A DNA stretch of 64,000 nt from Clostridiales bacterium. GTDB taxonomy: Bacteria; Bacillota; Clostridia; Oscillospirales; CAG-272. Location of the stretch: contig JAAWDG010000011.1 in the NCBI GenBank assembly GCA_022793655.1, positions 37,729 through 101,728 of the forward strand, in the 5' to 3' direction. Position 1 is the first letter of the stretch; each line of letters starts with the position of its first letter. Below, one piece after another: positions 5,805 to 55,959 of the stretch. The position numbers were made by a program, and so were the translations under genes. The notes beneath the pieces were generated by a model. The model saw nothing but the letters and a program-made list of their open reading frames with translations, was not told the DNA's origin and did no database searches.

Positions 5805-6316
5805 TGGATATTACCGATCGCAGAGTTCTTTTATTAACGGCTTATTCACTTGTTTTAGGTGTATTTCTGGGCCTGTGCTGGGGTGTGTTGTCATTTATTC
5901 GCATTGTCTTGACCCCTTCTGCTAAGACAGATGTAAAATCGCGCATTATGTGTGATATGATCACCTTCTTTTTTGATGTGTTCTTTGCACTGTTTTCATC
6001 GGTGGCGGCTGTGTTTTTGTTTTTTGGCGCGAATAATGGGCGCATACGTCTTTTGGGTTTAGTGGGCTGCGGTGTAGGTTTCGTTGTCTATCACACGCTG
6101 ATTGGCAAGCGGCTCTTGAAGGCGGCCGAGCGTTTTGTTCATATCGTTCGACGGGGTCTTATATTTATTTATCGCAAAACATTGGGACGCGTATTTACTA
6201 TGTTCAAAAATATGTTTATGGCTCCTTGGCGTTTTGCGAAGCGAAAGATGGGACAAAGAAAGAAGAAAGTAAAGGCAGTCAAACGACGCAAATCTACAGA
6301 AAAATTTACGATATGA
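5804..6316 (+). CDS. yabQ: spore cortex biosynthesis protein YabQ
   Basis: hydrophobic, DVFFA and NNGRIR motifs, overlaps yabP stop. Confidence 0.82.
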   Translation: MDITDRRVLLLTAYSLVLGVFLGLCWGVLSFIRIVLTPSAKTDVKSRIMCDMITFFFDVFFALFSSVAAVFLFFGANNGRIRLLGLVGCGVGFVVYHTLIGKRLLKAAERFVHIVRRGLIFIYRKTLGRVFTMFKNMFMAPWRFAKRKMGQRKKKVKAVKRRKSTEKFTI

Positions 6317-6317
6317 C

Positions 6318-6429
6318 AAGAATAACCCTAAAGGGTTATTCTTACGAAATTTAACTGGTCGTGCGGATGCACGACCTGCCGGATTATCCGGCACCGTTAA
6401 ATTTCAAGGTAGCTGAAACTTTATGATAC
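6318..6429 (+). repeat. structured intergenic repeat, copy 1
   Basis: AAGAATAACCC-taaa-GGGTTATTCTT hairpin; P1 GAAATTTAAC/GTTAAATTTC enclosing GGTCGTGC/GCACGACC and TGCCGGA/TCCGGCA; tail AAGGTAGCTGAAACTTTATGATAC. Confidence 0.9.
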
Positions 6430-6540
6430 AACAAAAACCCTGGCGGGTAATTCTTGGAAAGATTGACTTGTCACCTAAAAAGGTGACATTCCGGCAGTGC
6501 CGGAAACGCCAATCTTTATGGTAGTTAAAACCTTTATAAC
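6430..6540 (+). repeat. structured intergenic repeat, copy 2 (tandem)
   Basis: degenerate 5' hairpin; P1 AAAGATTGAC/GCCAATCTTT; TGTCACCT/AGGTGACA; TTCCGGC/GCCGGAA; tail ATGGTAGTTAAAACCTTTATAAC. Confidence 0.88.
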
Positions 6541-6654
6541 AAGAACACTCCTAACGGATTGCTCTTAGAAAGTTCATCTTTTTGCTTTCTTAAGCGAAAT
6601 TCCAGCGAAGCTGGAAACGATGAATTTTTCGTTAGCTGAACGGTTGCGCGATAC
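6541..6654 (+). repeat. structured intergenic repeat, copy 3 (tandem)
   Basis: AAGAACAC..TTGCTCTTA; P1 AAAGTTCATC/GATGAATTTT; TTCCAGC/GCTGGAA; tail GTTAGCTGAAC..GATAC. Confidence 0.85.
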
Positions 6655-6686
6655 ATAGAATCATCAATAGATTGAAAGAGGACGTA

Positions 6687-6962
6687 ATGAAAAACTGGAA
6701 TTTTTTTATGAAAATAGCCGTGCTTGTGTTCCTTTTATTTGGTATTATCACGACGGTACAGTTAAATTTACAAATTTCTGAACTGAAAAAAACAGCTACC
6801 GCGTCTCGCAGTGAAATTGATTCATTGAATGACGATATTGATGAATTAATCGATGAAATCGAGCAGCCCATTGACGAAAATTATATCATGAAATTTGCAA
6901 GAGAAAGTTTAAACTATCATTTGCCGTCTGAAATTGTATATTATAATGATATGACCAAATAA
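6687..6962 (+). CDS. divIC: septum formation initiator DivIC/FtsB family
   Basis: short N-tail, TM helix, coiled coil, YIMKFARESLNYHLPSEIVY motif; downstream of yabQ. Confidence 0.85.
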   Translation: MKNWNFFMKIAVLVFLLFGIITTVQLNLQISELKKTATASRSEIDSLNDDIDELIDEIEQPIDENYIMKFARESLNYHLPSEIVYYNDMTK

Positions 6963-7072
6963 GAATAAGCCTTACGGCTTATTCTTATAAAATTTGACTT
7001 TTAATGAAAACAGCATTCTGCCTTAAGGCAGAATCGTCAAATTTTAAGTTAGTGGAAAGTTTGAAATTAAAT
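6961..7072 (+). repeat. structured intergenic repeat, copy 4
   Basis: AAGAATAAGCC-ttac-GGCTTATTCTT; P1 AAAATTTGAC/GTCAAATTTT; TTCTGCC/GGCAGAA; overlaps divIC TAA. Confidence 0.87.
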
Positions 7073-7213
7073 AAGAACAATTCTAACGGATTGATCTTAA
7101 AGAATAAGCCATGCGGCTTGGCCTTAGAAAATTAAACTTGCCGCGTAAGTAAGCGGCATTTTTGTAAAACCGAAACCGTTTAATTTTCAGATAGCTAAAA
7201 AAATGAGAAAAAT
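7073..7213 (+). repeat. isolated 5' hairpin (7073-7099) followed by structured repeat copy 5 (7100-7213)
   Basis: AAGAACAATTC..GGATTGATCTTA then AAGAATAAGCC..; P1 GAAAATTAAAC/GTTTAATTTTC; TGCCGC/GCGGCA; tail GATAGCTAAAA. Confidence 0.83.
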
Positions 7214-7263
7214 AAGGGCAAGTTCGCATCTTAGTCCAAGATATAAAAAATGAGGAAGTTGCT

Positions 7264-8109
7264 ATGAGAGAAATAAGCGCACAACAAATTACAATGGAAG
7301 TGAAAAAATTATTAATGCAGGCGAATTATGTTTTACCTGCTGATGCTGAAGCGTTGATTGGCAAGGCGCAGCAAAACGAGACCAATGGGTTAGCAAAAGA
7401 AGTACTTGCCGCTTTAGAACAGAACTTGTGCGCGGCAAAGGAAATGGAACTTCCTATTTGTCAGGATACGGGCATGGCGGTTCTTTTTGTTGAGCTGGGC
7501 AGGGAGGTTTGTATCGTGGGCGGTGAATATGAAGAGGCCATTCATGAAGGGGTCAGACAGGCCTATACCCAAGGCTTTTTGCGCAAAAGCGTGGTAAGAG
7601 ACCCTTTGTTTGATCGGGTCAATACGAATGATAATACACCGGCCATTATCCATACCAGAATTGTGCCCGGCGATAAAGTGAAAATAACGGTGGCGCCCAA
7701 GGGATTTGGCAGCGAGAATATGAGCGCGATCAAGATGTTTACGCCATCAGCCAAACGAGAGGATATTATTCAATTTGTGTTAGATACCGTAAGAAATGCC
7801 GGCGGCAATCCTTGTCCTCCTCTATTGGTGGGCGTGGGTATTGGCGGCACCTTTGAATATTGTGCGCTGCTTGCTAAAAAGGCTTTAACACGGCCGGTGA
7901 GCCAGCACAATGCCTCGCCTGAATATCAAGCGTTAGAAGAAGATCTGCTTACACAGATTAATCAACTTGGTATTGGTCCGCAGGGCTTTGGCGGCGATAC
8001 AACGGCTTTGGCGGTAAATGTAGAGTGGTATCCAACCCATATTGCGGGTCTGCCGGTGGCGGTTAATATAAACTGTCATGTTATGCGGCATGCAGAAACA
8101 ATCCTGTAA
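7264..8109 (+). CDS. class I fumarate hydratase / tartrate dehydratase, alpha subunit
   Basis: [31 protein letters not shown] motifs. Confidence 0.92.
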
Positions 8110-8126
8110 ATCAAATCACGATTGTG

Positions 8127-8155
8127 AAATCTCTCTTTAATTAGAGAGATTTTTT
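8127..8155 (+). terminator. intrinsic terminator after fumarase alpha gene
   Basis: AAATCTCTCT-ttaatt-AGAGAGATTT followed by T run. Confidence 0.7.
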
Positions 8156-8178
8156 ATGATTGCTTTTTAATATTCAAT

Positions 8179-8295
8179 AAGAATAATCTTTACGGATTAT
8201 TCTTGGAAAGTTTGTCTTGTTACCCACAAGCGGGGGATATTTCGGCTGTGCAGAAACCGCCAATCTTTTTGGTAGCTAAAACTTTATAATACAAT
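8179..8295 (+). repeat. structured intergenic repeat, copy 6
   Basis: AAGAATAATCT-ttac-GGATTATTCTT; GAAAGTTTGTC..GCCAATCTTT; tail TTGGTAGCTAAAACTTTATAATACAAT. Confidence 0.85.
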
Positions 8296-8338
8296 AAAAG
8301 ATTCATGAGCAAAATATGACAATTATTTTGATTTTCCA

Positions 8339-8368
8339 TTGACATAACAATACAATATATGGTATCAT
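8339..8368 (+). promoter_or_regulatory. sigma-A promoter of xpt-nucleoside ABC operon
   Basis: TTGACA-18 nt-TATCAT, preceded by TG. Confidence 0.55.
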
Positions 8369-8399
8369 TTTACAGTAAAGCCAATGTGGAGAAGATAGA

Positions 8400-8969
8400 A
8401 TGAAAGCACTGGAAAAGAGAATATCTGAGGAAGGCGAGGCACTTTCATCAAATGTTTTGAAAGTGGGCTCTTTTTTAAATCAAAAAATTGACACAGCCTT
8501 TATGTTTGAAATGGGACAAGAAATTGCCTGTTTATACAAAAATGAGCCGATTACTAAAATTATAACGATCGAGGCATCTGGTATTGCCCTTGCATTAGCG
8601 GCGGCGTACTATATGAAGGTTCCGGTTGTCTTTGCGAAAAAAAGCAAGACAAGCAATGTGTCGGGCGAGGTTTATAGGGCGGCTATTCATTCTTTTACGC
8701 ATAACTGTGATTATAATGCCGTTATTCCCAAAGCGTATCTTTCATCAGATGATACCGTATTAATCGTAGATGATTTTTTGGCCGATGGCAATGCGGTGAT
8801 TGGTTTAGCCAGCATGATTGGACAAGCAGGGGCGGCGCTTGCTGGTGCGGCCATTGGGATTGAAAAAGGTTTTCAAGGGGGTGGCGACGCCCTTCGCGCA
8901 AAAGGCGTGCGAGTGGAAAGTTTAGCCATCATTGAAAAAATGGAGCCGAATAAAATTGTTTACCGGTAA
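8400..8969 (+). CDS. xpt: xanthine phosphoribosyltransferase
   Basis: LKVGSFLNQKID, TIEASGI, VLIVDDFLADG, IEKGFQGG. Confidence 0.93.
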   Translation: MKALEKRISEEGEALSSNVLKVGSFLNQKIDTAFMFEMGQEIACLYKNEPITKIITIEASGIALALAAAYYMKVPVVFAKKSKTSNVSGEVYRAAIHSFTHNCDYNAVIPKAYLSSDDTVLIVDDFLADGNAVIGLASMIGQAGAALAGAAIGIEKGFQGGGDALRAKGVRVESLAIIEKMEPNKIVYR

Positions 8970-22486: not shown

Positions 22487-22579
22487 GGAGAAGTCGCGTA
22501 GCCTGGTCGAGCGCGCGCGATTGGAAATCGCGTAAACGGCAAAACCGTTTCGAGAGTTCGAATCTCTCCTTCTCCGCCA
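22487..22579 (+). tRNA. tRNA-Ser (anticodon GGA)
   Basis: GGAGAAG/CTTCTCC acceptor, CGCGA-TTGGAAA-TCGCG anticodon arm, long variable arm, GTTCGAATC T loop, encoded CCA. Confidence 0.96.
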
Positions 22580-42817: not shown

Positions 42818-42962
42818 TAAGAACAAGTTATCAGGCTTGTTCTTATTGGTTTATAAATGTTTCAGCAACCAAAAAGATTGACGTTTCCGGCATCGCCGGA
42901 ATGTTACCCTAAACGGGGAACAAGTCAATCTTTCTAAGAACAAGCTATCAGGCTTGTTCTTA
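42818..42962 (-). repeat. structured intergenic repeat, copy 7, with the 5' hairpin present at both ends
   Basis: 28-nt TAAGAACAAG(C/T)TATCAGGCTTGTTCTTA at 42818 and 42935; P1 AAAGATTGAC/GTCAATCTTT; TTCCGGC/GCCGGAA; tail TTGGTTGCTGAAAC on minus strand. Confidence 0.9.
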
Positions 42963-49163: not shown

Positions 49164-49277
49164 ATTGTACCATAAAGTTTCAGTTACCTTAAAGCTCATC
49201 GTTTCCGGCTCTGCTGGAATGCTGCCTGATAGGCTGCAAGATGAACTTTCTAAGAATAAGCCGTAAGGGTGATTCTT
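49164..49277 (-). repeat. structured intergenic repeat, copy 8
   Basis: minus strand AAGAATCACCC-ttac-GGCTTATTCTTA; P1 AAAGTTCATC/GATGAGCTTT; TTCCAGC/GCCGGAA; tail AAGGTAACTGAAACTTTATGGTACAAT. Confidence 0.9.
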
Positions 49278-55883: not shown

Positions 55884-55959
55884 TGGTCTGAGTGACTGGA
55901 CTTGAACCAGCGGCCTCTACCACCCCAAGGTAGCGCGCTACCATCTGCGCCACACCCAG
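55884..55959 (-). tRNA. tRNA-Pro (anticodon GGG)
   Basis: CTGGGTG/CACTCAG acceptor, CTACC-TTGGGGT-GGTAG, GTTCAAGTC T loop, CCA; TTGACA-17-TATAAT promoter at 56000-55972. Confidence 0.96.

What the first reader, a model, noticed from the sequence alone, without database searches (positions are those of the whole stretch)
6318..8295. Unrecognised family of ~112-117 nt structured repeats with covarying three-way-junction fold (8 copies in window)
Seen: copies start at 6318, 6430, 6541, 6961, 7100 and 8179 (+) and at 42961 and 49277 (-). Each has hairpin A (AAGAAYAA-NNN-4 nt loop-NNN-TTRTTCTTA), a 10-bp stem P1 enclosing a hypervariable hairpin P2 and a 7-bp hairpin P3 with fixed junction lengths (about 1, 0 and 2 nt), then a tail like GGTAGCTGAAACTTTATGATAC. 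Stems change sequence but mostly keep pairing. P1: GAAATTTAAC/GTTAAATTTC, AAAGATTGAC/GTCAATCTTT, AAAGTTCATC/GATGAATTTT, AAAATTTGAC/GTCAAATTTT. P3: TGCCGGA/TCCGGCA, TTCCGGC/GCCGGAA, TTCCAGC/GCTGGAA, TTCTGCC/GGCAGAA. P2: GGTCGTGC/GCACGACC, TGTCACCT/AGGTGACA, TGCCGC/GCGGCA. Some arms are degenerate in copies 4-6. Inference: selection acts on structure, so this is a multi-copy structured ncRNA (arrayed and possibly processed to units) or a REP/BIME-like ssDNA element moved by an enzyme encoded elsewhere. I do not recognise it as a known family. Both G-U and A-C mismatches occur, so the functional strand, and RNA versus DNA, is unresolved.
Basis: partly seen in the sequence, partly recalled or inferred. 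Interest (0 to 1): 0.9.

Follow-up and report, generated by a model that had tools for sequence, protein, structure and literature searches.

The report
Promoter-hugging structured repeat family in gut Clostridia
The eight copies belong to a family of over 100 short intergenic repeats that fold into a hairpin plus a three-armed junction, sit just after promoter -10 boxes and come and go between related gut bacteria, so they look like an undescribed selfish DNA repeat rather than a working RNA gene.

Summary
All 8 window copies are real and share a hairpin (hpA) plus a three-way junction (P1 enclosing P2 and P3). The 1.84-Mb genome gives 135 covariance-model matches. I used 111 of them, which form 77 intergenic arrays. 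Pairing is far above the controls: 90.6% of cells paired against 73.7% when shuffled, and 36 of 37 pairs show double changes. Rfam has no match.

G-U and A-C mismatches are equal (136 vs 129), the antisense RNA fold is no weaker, and P2 falls into a few subfamilies. Copies decay, and they differ in number or presence between strains and species. That fits a selfish, DNA-level repeat of the REP, bcr1 or BOX kind better than a selected ncRNA.

Two points are new. Arrays start within 3 nt of a -10 hexamer in 48 of 75 cases (15% for control positions), and 29 of 75 also have a -35. Two clean sites that are empty in a sister species show the promoters belong to the host. Each unit ends in its own TRTGnTAYAAT-like motif.

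The fold recurs sparsely across the order. No Y1, TnpB, IS110 or RT gene was found, so the way it moves is unknown. I rate it a new variant of a known kind, interest 0.6.

The parts
6318..6430 (+). Copy 1, the best-preserved unit. Hairpin A 6318-6343; P1 6346-6355 with 6396-6405; P2 6357-6376; P3 6377-6393; tail 6406-6430 ending in a TATGATAC..-type -10-like motif.
   Evidence: R1 118.9 bits. ssDNA fold -33.2 kcal/mol, z -10.3.
6430..6542 (+). Copy 2, head-to-tail with copy 1. Hairpin A is partly degenerate.
   Evidence: R1 105.7 bits at G000:C22:44158-44270. ssDNA z -5.7. A strain in run X5 has one unit fewer here.
6541..6653 (+). Copy 3, the last unit of the first array. It lies upstream of the small gene at 6672-6962.
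   Evidence: R1 105.6 bits. ssDNA z -4.0.
6961..7070 (+). Copy 4. Its first bases overlap the TAA stop of the gene at 6672-6962. Its P2 is decayed relative to the orthologous copy in G003.
   Evidence: R1 93.9 bits. Comparison with G003.
7073..7099 (+). Hairpin-A-only module between copies 4 and 5.
   Evidence: Repeat family D1; sequence.
7100..7212 (+). Copy 5, with a degenerate P3. It lies upstream of the gene at 7264-8109.
   Evidence: R1 104.7 bits. One metatranscriptome contig lies on 7087-7255.
8179..8293 (+). Copy 6, a solo unit with degenerate P2 and P3. It sits between a terminator-like hairpin (8126-8153) and the promoter-like site of the next gene (8339-8368). It is absent at the syntenic site in G003.
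   Evidence: R1 103.2 bits..
42848..42961 (-). Copy 7, a solo unit.
   Evidence: R1 113.2 bits. ssDNA z -9.2.
42819..42844 (.). Solitary hairpin A directly after the tail of copy 7. Arrays often end in such a hairpin.
   Evidence: G000:C22:80547-80572; sequence.
49166..49277 (-). Copy 8, a solo unit preceded by ..GGATACAAT.
   Evidence: R1 106.8 bits. Flank.

Best explanation
This is a non-autonomous, selfish intergenic repeat family of the same broad kind as REP/BIME, bcr1, BOX and IS200/IS605-derived palindromic elements. It is not a family of working RNA genes.

A unit of about 112 nt has three parts: a 26-nt palindromic hairpin (hpA), a three-way junction (P1 enclosing P2 and P3), and a tail that ends in an extended -10-like motif (TRTGnTAYAAT).

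Shown:
- The fold is kept by compensatory change among subfamilies and across genera.
- Individual copies decay.
- Copies are gained, lost and change in number between strains and species.
- Arrays are always head-to-tail.
- Arrays start directly 3' of a ..AAT/TAYAAT sequence, very often the -10 box of a genuine host promoter, and point towards the downstream gene.

Inferred:
- The fold is needed for propagation as folded single-stranded DNA, recognised by a strand-specific enzyme that inserts the unit 3' of a short TAYAAT-like target.
- Because the unit itself ends in that target, new units can land behind old ones. Together with tandem duplication this builds arrays.
- Recombination between flanking hpA copies leaves solitary hpA modules.
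- The element-borne -10 lets the downstream gene keep a promoter-like signal, so insertions between the -10 and the transcription start are tolerated.

The enzyme is unknown.
For: Copy number and structure. R1 gives 135 matches in the genome. I used 111, which form 77 arrays: 50 solo, 21 of two units, 5 of three and 1 of four. None of the 27 multi-unit arrays has mixed orientation. Of cells, 90.6% pair against 73.7% in shuffles, and 36 of 37 pairs have double changes.

No RNA-strand signature. G-U/U-G 136 vs A-C/C-A 129. Across genera it is 7 vs 9, with 94.6% of cells paired. The antisense RNA fold is more stable in 52 of 83 copies and the sense fold in 30. The same fold forms with DNA energy parameters.

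Turnover. Copies fall into subfamilies. Of 9 G000 arrays in syntenic stretches, 5 have no counterpart in G003 and 3 of the 4 shared ones differ in copy number. The 19-kb G003 stretch syntenic to C18:1-20000 has no model match, against 4 copies in G000. G003 has at least one array that G000 lacks. G001 has short intergenic regions with no element at the three window sites. A strain in run X5 has one unit fewer in the first array. One G000 copy has a decayed P2, and one G003 copy has an internal deletion.

Patchy distribution. By DNA search, 1 of 6 other same-genus genomes carries the family. With R1, 6 of 149 other genomes of the family have a match. With R2, 4 of 150 other genomes of the order have one, including two further families.

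Placement. 48 of 75 arrays start within -2..+3 nt of a TAnnnT hexamer (control intergenic positions 15%). 38 of 75 also have the TG extension (control 1.2%), and 29 of 75 also have TTG at 16-18 bp (control 1.5%). Only 3 of 76 terminal tails and 3 of 34 internal tails have such a -35. At C18:6565 and C7:70185 the same -35/-10 promoter stands in G003 without the element. At C18:6565 the tails do not repeat the host -10, so the tail motif belongs to the element.

Orientation, by array. In co-directional intergenic regions, 30 are sense and 7 antisense. 26 lie in divergent regions and 7 in convergent ones. 47 vs 21 lie on the G-rich strand.
Against: No partner enzyme was found. There is no PF01797 (Y1/RAYT) or PF07282 (TnpB) in G000, G003, G001 or G006. 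There is no PF01548 (IS110) or PF00078 (RT) in G000, G003 or G080. The genomes are 82-100% complete drafts, and other transposase families were not searched.

No fresh insertion with exact junctions was seen. The sister species is only about 82% identical, so only the left boundary is sharp.

The strong sense bias and promoter adjacency mean the units must be transcribed, so an RNA-level role cannot be excluded. One metatranscriptome contig covers 7087-7255. A fold, with the P3 sequence, kept across an order is also what a functional RNA would show.

The sense bias could come from selection rather than targeting. 6 of the 8 terminator-like sites in 6200-8450 are on the antisense strand, 5 of them inside units and one in the gene at 6672-6962.

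Gene calls were crude (longest ORFs of at least 90 aa), and leading and lagging strands were inferred from local GC skew.
Confidence: 0.6

Rival explanations
1. A cis-acting RNA module. The unit spreads like a mobile element, but its fold is kept because it works in the mRNA, as a 5' leader or intercistronic element. It might stabilise the message, mark a processing site, or bind a conserved host protein through P3 and the junction.
For: The units sit between the -10 and the gene, or right after stop codons, in sense orientation, so they are part of mRNAs. The P3 sequence (ATTTCGGC-NNN-GCCGAAA) and the junction letters are conserved across genera while the other stems covary. One RNA-library contig lies on 7087-7255.
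Against: G-U equals A-C, and the antisense fold is at least as stable as the sense fold. Copies decay and are lost without any visible constraint. 5 of 6 other same-genus genomes lack the family by DNA search. Units flank unrelated housekeeping genes. A start 7 nt after the host -10 would remove most of the 5' arm of hpA (inference).
Confidence: 0.2
2. A DNA-level regulatory site carried by the repeat. The hpA palindrome (8-bp arms, AAGAAYAA..TTRTTCTT) lies over the transcription start, as a repressor operator does, so the family could wire many promoters to one DNA-binding protein.
For: hpA lies at about +1 to +26 behind the -10 boxes. Solitary hpA modules also sit directly after -10 boxes. 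The outer arms are conserved.
Against: The inner three pairs of hpA covary (CG 32, GC 25, AU 22, UA 19 at one pair), which points to a hairpin and not only to arm recognition. hpA sequences differ completely in other genera while the fold stays. No candidate regulator was sought or found. This reading does not explain the three-way junction.
Confidence: 0.08
3. A family of independently transcribed small RNAs. Each tail promoter drives the next unit, and arrays are cut into units of about 112 nt, possibly by self-cleavage.
For: Each unit is preceded by an extended -10-like motif, either the host promoter or the previous tail. Units are arrayed head to tail.
Against: No terminator-like site falls at a unit end on the sense strand in 6200-8450. 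No ribozyme or sRNA family matches, even at E<=10. There is no G-U signature. Tails rarely have a -35. The only RNA evidence is one contig that runs on into the next gene's leader.
Confidence: 0.06

Closest known systems
bcr1 repeats of the Bacillus cereus group
   Same: A small interspersed repeat of a Gram-positive bacterium. Its genomic distribution is not conserved between relatives. Compensatory changes keep a 'cruciform-like' stem enclosing two stem-loops. Copies lose structural stability over time. No transposase is assigned (review PMC3184786, section 8 read whole).
   Different: bcr1 is about 155 bp and is flanked by 5-bp direct repeats, and its structure is argued at the RNA level. 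Here the unit is about 112 nt with an extra 5' hairpin. It forms head-to-tail arrays, shows no demonstrable target duplication, sits next to -10 boxes, and has no G-U excess. Sequence relatedness was not tested, because no bcr1 sequence was at hand.
REP/BIME elements with RAYT transposases
   Same: High-copy extragenic palindromes, clustered into arrays, thought to act as folded single-stranded DNA and to be selfish. A GTAG-containing motif (GGTAGC) stands next to the foot of P1.
   Different: REPs are 20-40-bp single hairpins. According to the abstract of PMC3733652 (passages seen) they often sit in opposite orientation and mostly lie between unidirectional and convergent genes. Here units are always head-to-tail, 26 arrays are in divergent regions against 7 in convergent ones, the fold is a three-way junction, and no Y1/RAYT gene was found.
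IS200/IS605-derived palindrome-associated elements
   Same: No terminal inverted repeats. A hairpin at the left end. Insertion apparently 3' of a short specific sequence, in one orientation and without an evident duplication. A bias to the G-rich strand (47 vs 21).
   Different: No TnpA (Y1) or TnpB in 4 genomes. The unit's own 3' end resembles the target. The three-way junction is not a feature of these ends (recalled, not tested).
Pneumococcal BOX elements, and the Neisseria Correia and REP2 repeats
   Same: Modular and partly tandem (BOX). Promoter-like sequences are carried by the repeat and placed upstream of genes (Correia, REP2). All are transcribed with neighbouring genes (passages of PMC10969869 and PMC3184786).
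   Different: Correia has inverted terminal repeats and a TA duplication. BOX has A, B and C modules. None is described as landing between the -10 and the start site, or as a covarying three-way junction kept across an order. No sequence comparison was made.

Membership tests
Any Rfam 15 RNA family (including ribozymes and sRNAs) | A covariance-model match at the gathering score | tested here: not met
   Only two tRNAs pass in the 64-kb window. On 6200-8400 at E<=10 there are only chance-level matches, all far below their gathering scores (best 21.3 bits against 90).
REP/BIME (RAYT-mobilised) | A cognate Y1 (HUH) RAYT gene in the genome | tested here: not met
   PF01797: 0 of 4 genomes (G000, G003, G001, G006). 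The same search rings in 6 of 14 control genomes. These are draft genomes, 82-94% complete.
REP/BIME (RAYT-mobilised) | A 20-40-bp palindrome tagged by GTAG or CGTC at one end | tested here: inconclusive
   hpA is a 26-nt palindrome without such a tag. GGTAGC follows the 3' foot of P1 in the consensus.
REP/BIME (RAYT-mobilised) | Mostly between unidirectional and convergent genes; units often in opposite orientation | tested here: not met
   26 arrays in divergent regions against 7 in convergent ones. 0 of 27 multi-unit arrays have mixed orientation.
IS200/IS605-derived non-autonomous element | TnpA (Y1), or at least TnpB, present in the genome | tested here: not met
   PF01797 and PF07282: 0 of 4 genomes each.
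IS200/IS605-derived non-autonomous element | No inverted terminal repeats; insertion 3' of a short target, without duplication and in one orientation | tested here: inconclusive
   The left boundary is directly 3' of ..AAT/TAYAAT in most arrays. At C18:6565 the tails do not copy the host -10. Flank-to-tail identity is only slightly above the cross-copy level (7.9 vs 7.2 of 11). No fresh insertion was available.
Classical MITE (DDE transposase) | Terminal inverted repeats and a fixed-length target-site duplication | tested here: not met
   The 5' end (AAGAAYAA..) and the reverse complement of the 3' end share no convincing repeat. No consistent duplication was found.
bcr1-type repeats | A stem enclosing two stem-loops kept by compensatory change; non-conserved positions between relatives | tested here: met
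   (fold). (positions). This shows likeness of kind only.
bcr1-type repeats | Sequence homology to bcr1 and 5-bp flanking direct repeats | not tested
   No bcr1 sequence was available from any tool. Direct repeats were not demonstrable here.
CRISPR array | Identical short repeats separated by unique spacers, with cas genes | tested here: not met
   Units abut one another with no unique spacers. The variable part (P2) is a palindrome that falls into subfamilies. cas genes were not searched.
Retroelement-borne repeat (retron, group II intron, DGR) | A reverse transcriptase gene in the genome | tested here: not met
   PF00078: 0 of 5 genomes.
IS110/IS1111-borne or bridge-RNA-like element | A DEDD transposase gene in element-bearing genomes | tested here: not met
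   PF01548: none in G000, G003 or G080. The only match is in G006, which lacks the repeat.

The most novel reading that the evidence does not exclude
This would be a new class of structured mobile element, widespread but sparse in one order of gut Clostridia. It would be mobilised by an enzyme outside the usual suspects (no Y1, TnpB, IS110 or RT). It would insert as folded single-stranded DNA into the melted region just downstream of the -10 box of active promoters, in the direction of transcription. It would bring its own extended -10, so the host gene stays expressed. In effect it would be a repeat that homes to open promoter complexes.
Probability: 0.15. Interest if true: 0.85.

Novelty: new variant of a known kind. 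Interest (0 to 1): 0.6.

Why it matters
Small structured repeats such as REP, ERIC, BOX and bcr1 are common, yet for most of them neither the way they move nor the reason for their fold is known.

This family offers unusually clean handles on both questions:
- a covarying three-way junction kept across an order;
- lineage-specific bursts (at least 111 copies in 1.84 Mb, about 0.7% of the genome);
- a sharply defined landing place between the -10 box and the transcription start of host promoters;
- a promoter-like motif of its own.

If targeting is real, it points to a mechanism that reads promoters or their melted DNA. It would also have rewired the 5' ends of dozens of operons in a mouse-gut bacterium.

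There is a practical side. These repeats break short-read assemblies: copies lie within 150 nt of five contig ends. They could also be mistaken for ncRNA genes by covariation-based screens.

Tried and rejected
Rfam. The gathering-score scan of the window and the E<=10 scan of 6200-8400 gave nothing relevant.

Partner genes. Y1/RAYT, TnpB, IS110 and RT are absent from the element-bearing genomes searched. Other transposase families were not searched. A self-BLAST of the genome showed no multi-copy insertion sequence, only paralogous gene families. Neighbours of 20 copies in other genomes are unrelated housekeeping genes, with no recurrent partner.

DGR-like or random hypervariability of P2. Rejected: P2 falls into about 5-6 subfamilies, and there is no RT.

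Target-site duplication of the -10. Flank-to-tail identity is only slightly above the cross-copy level (7.9 vs 7.2 of 11, with 3 of 46 perfect), and it is contradicted at C18:6565. I left this open.

The promoter as part of the element. Rejected: the spacers and -35 boxes differ between sites, and the same promoters stand in G003 without the element.

Of the 80 loci listed, only 6 (all Clostridia-type MAGs) matched R1 (7 matches). The others are chance hairpins and served as a specificity control. Two viral-contig scans found nothing.

Sequencing runs. All four runs laid are Logan contigs, so they give no starts, ends, strand or level of RNA. The RNA run gave one 169-nt contig on 7087-7255 and otherwise only pieces of other organisms on a conserved gene stretch. 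Parts without cover mean nothing. Two joints in X11 across repeats may be assembly artefacts.

G001 and the two other C18 sites in G003 were too diverged for exact junctions.

I separated gene direction from replication direction only weakly: among arrays beside lagging-strand genes, 7 were sense and 5 antisense.

For the genome-wide counts I kept 111 of the 135 matches. I dropped 22 with E>5.1e-5 and 2 reverse-strand matches that overlapped better ones.

Supplementary files of papers were closed and not requested. Those of PMC3733652 may list further REP families. Literature searches found no description of this family, but most subscription journals are not in the library.
Full report
OBSERVATION.

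The sequence at 6318-8295 holds the six plus-strand copies exactly as described, and two more lie on the minus strand. A covariance model built from the eight copies (R1) places them at 6318-6430, 6430-6542, 6541-6653, 6961-7070, 7100-7212, 8179-8293, 42848-42961 (-) and 49166-49277 (-).

It has an 11-bp hairpin A (hpA), then P1 enclosing P2 and P3 with junctions of 1, 0 and 2 nt. Of its 37 pairs, 23 have a compensatory change.

With DNA energy parameters the copies fold with z-scores of -2.9 to -10.3. Seven of 8 give hpA (partly melted in 3) plus a branched P1/P2/P3 domain, though P3 is misformed in 7100. The copy at 8179 is degenerate.

There is also an hpA-only module at 7073-7099 and a solitary hpA at 42819-42844.

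Rfam 15 has no match. Only two tRNAs pass in the window, and a permissive scan of 6200-8400 gives only chance-level hits.

SCALE.

The window is part of a 1.84-Mb draft genome of 25 contigs at about 43% G+C. Public-run labels place it in the mouse gut.

R1 finds 135 matches at E<=0.01. I kept 111: all with E<=5.1e-5 except two reverse-strand overlaps. They form 77 arrays, of which 50 are solo, 21 have two units, 5 have three and 1 has four. None of the 27 multi-unit arrays mixes orientations. By crude ORF calls, 97 of the 111 copies lie wholly between ORFs. Copies lie within 150 nt of five contig ends, so the count is a lower bound.

STRUCTURE.

On 115 model-aligned matches (112 distinct), 90.6% of cells form standard pairs. 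Shuffled partners give 73.7%, and slid partners give 37-56%. 36 of 37 pairs show changes on both sides, and 0 of 500 shuffles reach any of the five measures. That alignment was fitted to the model and the copies are paralogues, so cells are not independent events.

Independent support comes from other genomes. R1 finds full-length matches in six other genera of the same family (6 of 149 other genomes at E<=1e-4). In these, hpA, P1 and P2 have quite different sequences but still pair. P3 (ATTTCGGC-NNN-GCCGAAA) and the junction letters are conserved. In 20 such copies from other genomes, 94.6% of cells pair. Part of that set was found through a P3 pattern, so the conservation of P3 is partly built in.

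A second model (R2) finds the fold in 4 of 150 other genomes of the order, including two further families. One genome has at least 16 copies. Only 25 candidates per genome were scored in these wide searches.

As a specificity control, 80 loci picked only for a P3-like hairpin gave R1 matches in 6 loci, all Clostridia-type MAGs, and in none of the others.

RNA OR DNA.

Three results argue against selection on the sense RNA.
- G-U/U-G cells equal A-C/C-A cells: 136 vs 129 in the genome, and 7 vs 9 across genera.
- The antisense RNA fold is on average 1.6 kcal/mol more stable than the sense fold. It is the more stable one in 52 of 83 copies, against 30 for the sense fold.
- Individual copies decay. 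The copy at 6961 has lost half of P2 relative to its orthologue in the sister species G003, and G003's copy in the first intergenic region has an internal deletion.

P2 is not freely hypervariable. It falls into about 5-6 subfamilies that partly go with particular P1 and P3 types, while hpA variants are shuffled among them. So the fold looks like a property of the propagating master sequences, with perfect Watson-Crick stems, and mismatches look like neutral noise. This favours recognition as folded DNA, but it does not prove it.

TURNOVER.

By DNA search, only one of six other same-genus genomes (G003, about 82% identical in genes) carries the family.

I compared 9 G000 arrays with G003 in three syntenic stretches.
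- Five have no counterpart: the third window site, three sites on C18, and C7:70185.
- Four are shared, three of them with a different copy number (3 vs 1, about 2.5 vs 4, 1 vs 3, and 2 vs 2).
- One G003 array is made of a duplicated two-unit block.
- G003 has at least one array that G000 lacks.

The more distant G001 has short intergenic regions (46, 20 and 200 nt) with no element at the three window sites. A contig of another strain (run X5) has one unit fewer in the first array, with a P2 variant.

PLACEMENT, the main new finding.

The 11 nt upstream of first or solo units read TRTGnTAYAAT, the extended -10 of Gram-positive promoters. Often there is a TTGnnn 17 bp further up.

- 48 of 75 arrays start within -2..+3 nt of the end of a TAnnnT hexamer (control intergenic positions 15%).
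- 38 of 75 also have the TG extension (control 1.2%).
- 29 of 75 also have TTG at 16-18 bp (control 1.5%).

The unit's own tail carries a similar extended -10-like motif but almost never a -35: 3 of 76 terminal tails and 3 of 34 internal tails.

Two sites are clean. At C18:6565 and C7:70185 the same -35/spacer/-10 stands in G003 and is followed directly by the native leader. In G000 the array begins 0-3 nt after that -10. So the promoters are the host's, and the element sits between the -10 and the start site. At C18:6565 the tails do not repeat the host's -10, so the tail motif is element-borne and not a target duplication. A genome-wide test gives only a slight excess of flank-to-tail identity (7.9 vs 7.2 of 11).

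Of 205 TRTGnTAnAAT motifs in the genome, 54 are element-associated.

In other genera the units often follow a stop codon embedded in ..ATAA... This suggests a short A/T-rich target rather than promoters as such (inference).

ORIENTATION.

By array, with crude ORF calls: in co-directional intergenic regions 30 are sense and 7 antisense; 26 lie in divergent regions and 7 in convergent ones; and 47 vs 21 lie on the locally G-rich strand. Gene direction and replication direction are confounded. Beside lagging-strand genes, 7 arrays are sense and 5 antisense.

A fixed orientation relative to an asymmetric target (TAYAAT) would explain the sense bias. Selection could also explain it, because 6 of the 8 terminator-like sites in 6200-8450 lie on the antisense strand, 5 of them inside units and one in the gene at 6672-6962.

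ARCHITECTURE OF ARRAYS.

Many arrays end with a further hpA after the last tail, and about ten solitary hpA modules sit directly behind -10 boxes. This fits hpA as a flanking repeat, with solitary copies left by recombination (inference).

MECHANISM.

No enzyme was found.
- No Y1/RAYT or TnpB in G000, G003, G001 or G006.
- No IS110-type or RT gene in G000, G003 or G080.
- No multi-copy insertion sequence in the assembly.
- No recurrent neighbour gene.
- No copy in viral contigs, by two patterns.

The proposal of strand-specific insertion of folded ssDNA 3' of a TAYAAT-like target, with reinsertion behind the unit's own tail, is therefore an inference from the anatomy.

RNA DATA.

All runs available were contigs. 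One 169-nt contig from a metatranscriptome lies on 7087-7255 with one mismatch. This is compatible with transcription of the copy at 7100 but shows no start, end or strand.

COMPARISON WITH WHAT IS KNOWN.

- Closest in kind is bcr1 of the Bacillus cereus group: a stem enclosing two stem-loops kept by compensatory change, non-conserved positions, decay of copies, and no assigned transposase (PMC3184786, section 8 read). Homology was not tested.
- REP/BIME membership fails on the RAYT gene, on orientation and on genomic placement (PMC3733652, passages).
- IS200/IS605 derivation fails on TnpA and TnpB.
- Classical MITE membership fails on inverted repeats and target duplication.
- Promoter-bearing repeats (Correia, REP2) are a functional parallel (PMC10969869 and PMC3184786, passages).
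- Three literature searches found no description of this family.

VERDICT.

This is a real, unannotated and abundant structured repeat family. It is most likely a selfish DNA-level element (0.6) with an unusual landing place at promoter -10 boxes and an unknown mobilising enzyme. An RNA-level role in cis remains possible (0.2).

Noticed in passing
L221:8329-8955 (G000:C7:63828-64454); also G000 C15:93656-94389, C15:66928-67638, C7:99951-100657 and C15:87135-87840: A second repeat family of about 700 bp (82-92% identical copies). It is partly non-coding and carries a small conserved ORF of 81-96 aa. Several copies lie next to arrays of the structured repeat. It has no Rfam match.
   Followed up: partly
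G000:C1:233195-236424 and C12:38632-39649: RHS/YD-repeat protein paralogues (about 94% identical stretches) at contig ends. They are probably polymorphic toxin cassettes that break the assembly.
   Followed up: no
window 6200-8450, minus strand: Read on the antisense strand, the P2 and P3 hairpins are followed by T-rich runs and score as terminator-like sites. 6 of the 8 sites found are on the minus strand, 5 of them inside units, against 2.3 expected overall. This may select against antisense insertions.
   Followed up: partly
window 8126-8153 and 8339-8368: A terminator-like hairpin follows the gene at 7264-8109, and a strong promoter-like site (TTGACA, 18 nt, TATCAT, with TG) precedes the gene at 8400. 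Copy 6 sits between them, so it is not in that gene's leader.
   Followed up: no
L091:1430-1500 and L096 (G080): In another genus the units are flanked by a (CAATGTG)n microsatellite and by extra stand-alone hairpin modules. This shows the same modular build with different sequences.
   Followed up: no
L093:170-804 (G135, about 60% G+C): Three units are embedded in a longer repeat with a period of about 175-350 nt that also carries a terminator-like hairpin. This is a G+C-rich version of the family.
   Followed up: no
L087/L082 (G003:C44, syntenic to window 6961-7264): The four units there are a duplicated two-unit block (units 1 and 3 are alike, and units 2 and 4 are alike). This is direct evidence that arrays grow by tandem duplication.
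   Followed up: yes
window 22487-22576 (+) and 55887-55959 (-): Two tRNA genes, the only Rfam matches at the gathering score in the window.
   Followed up: no
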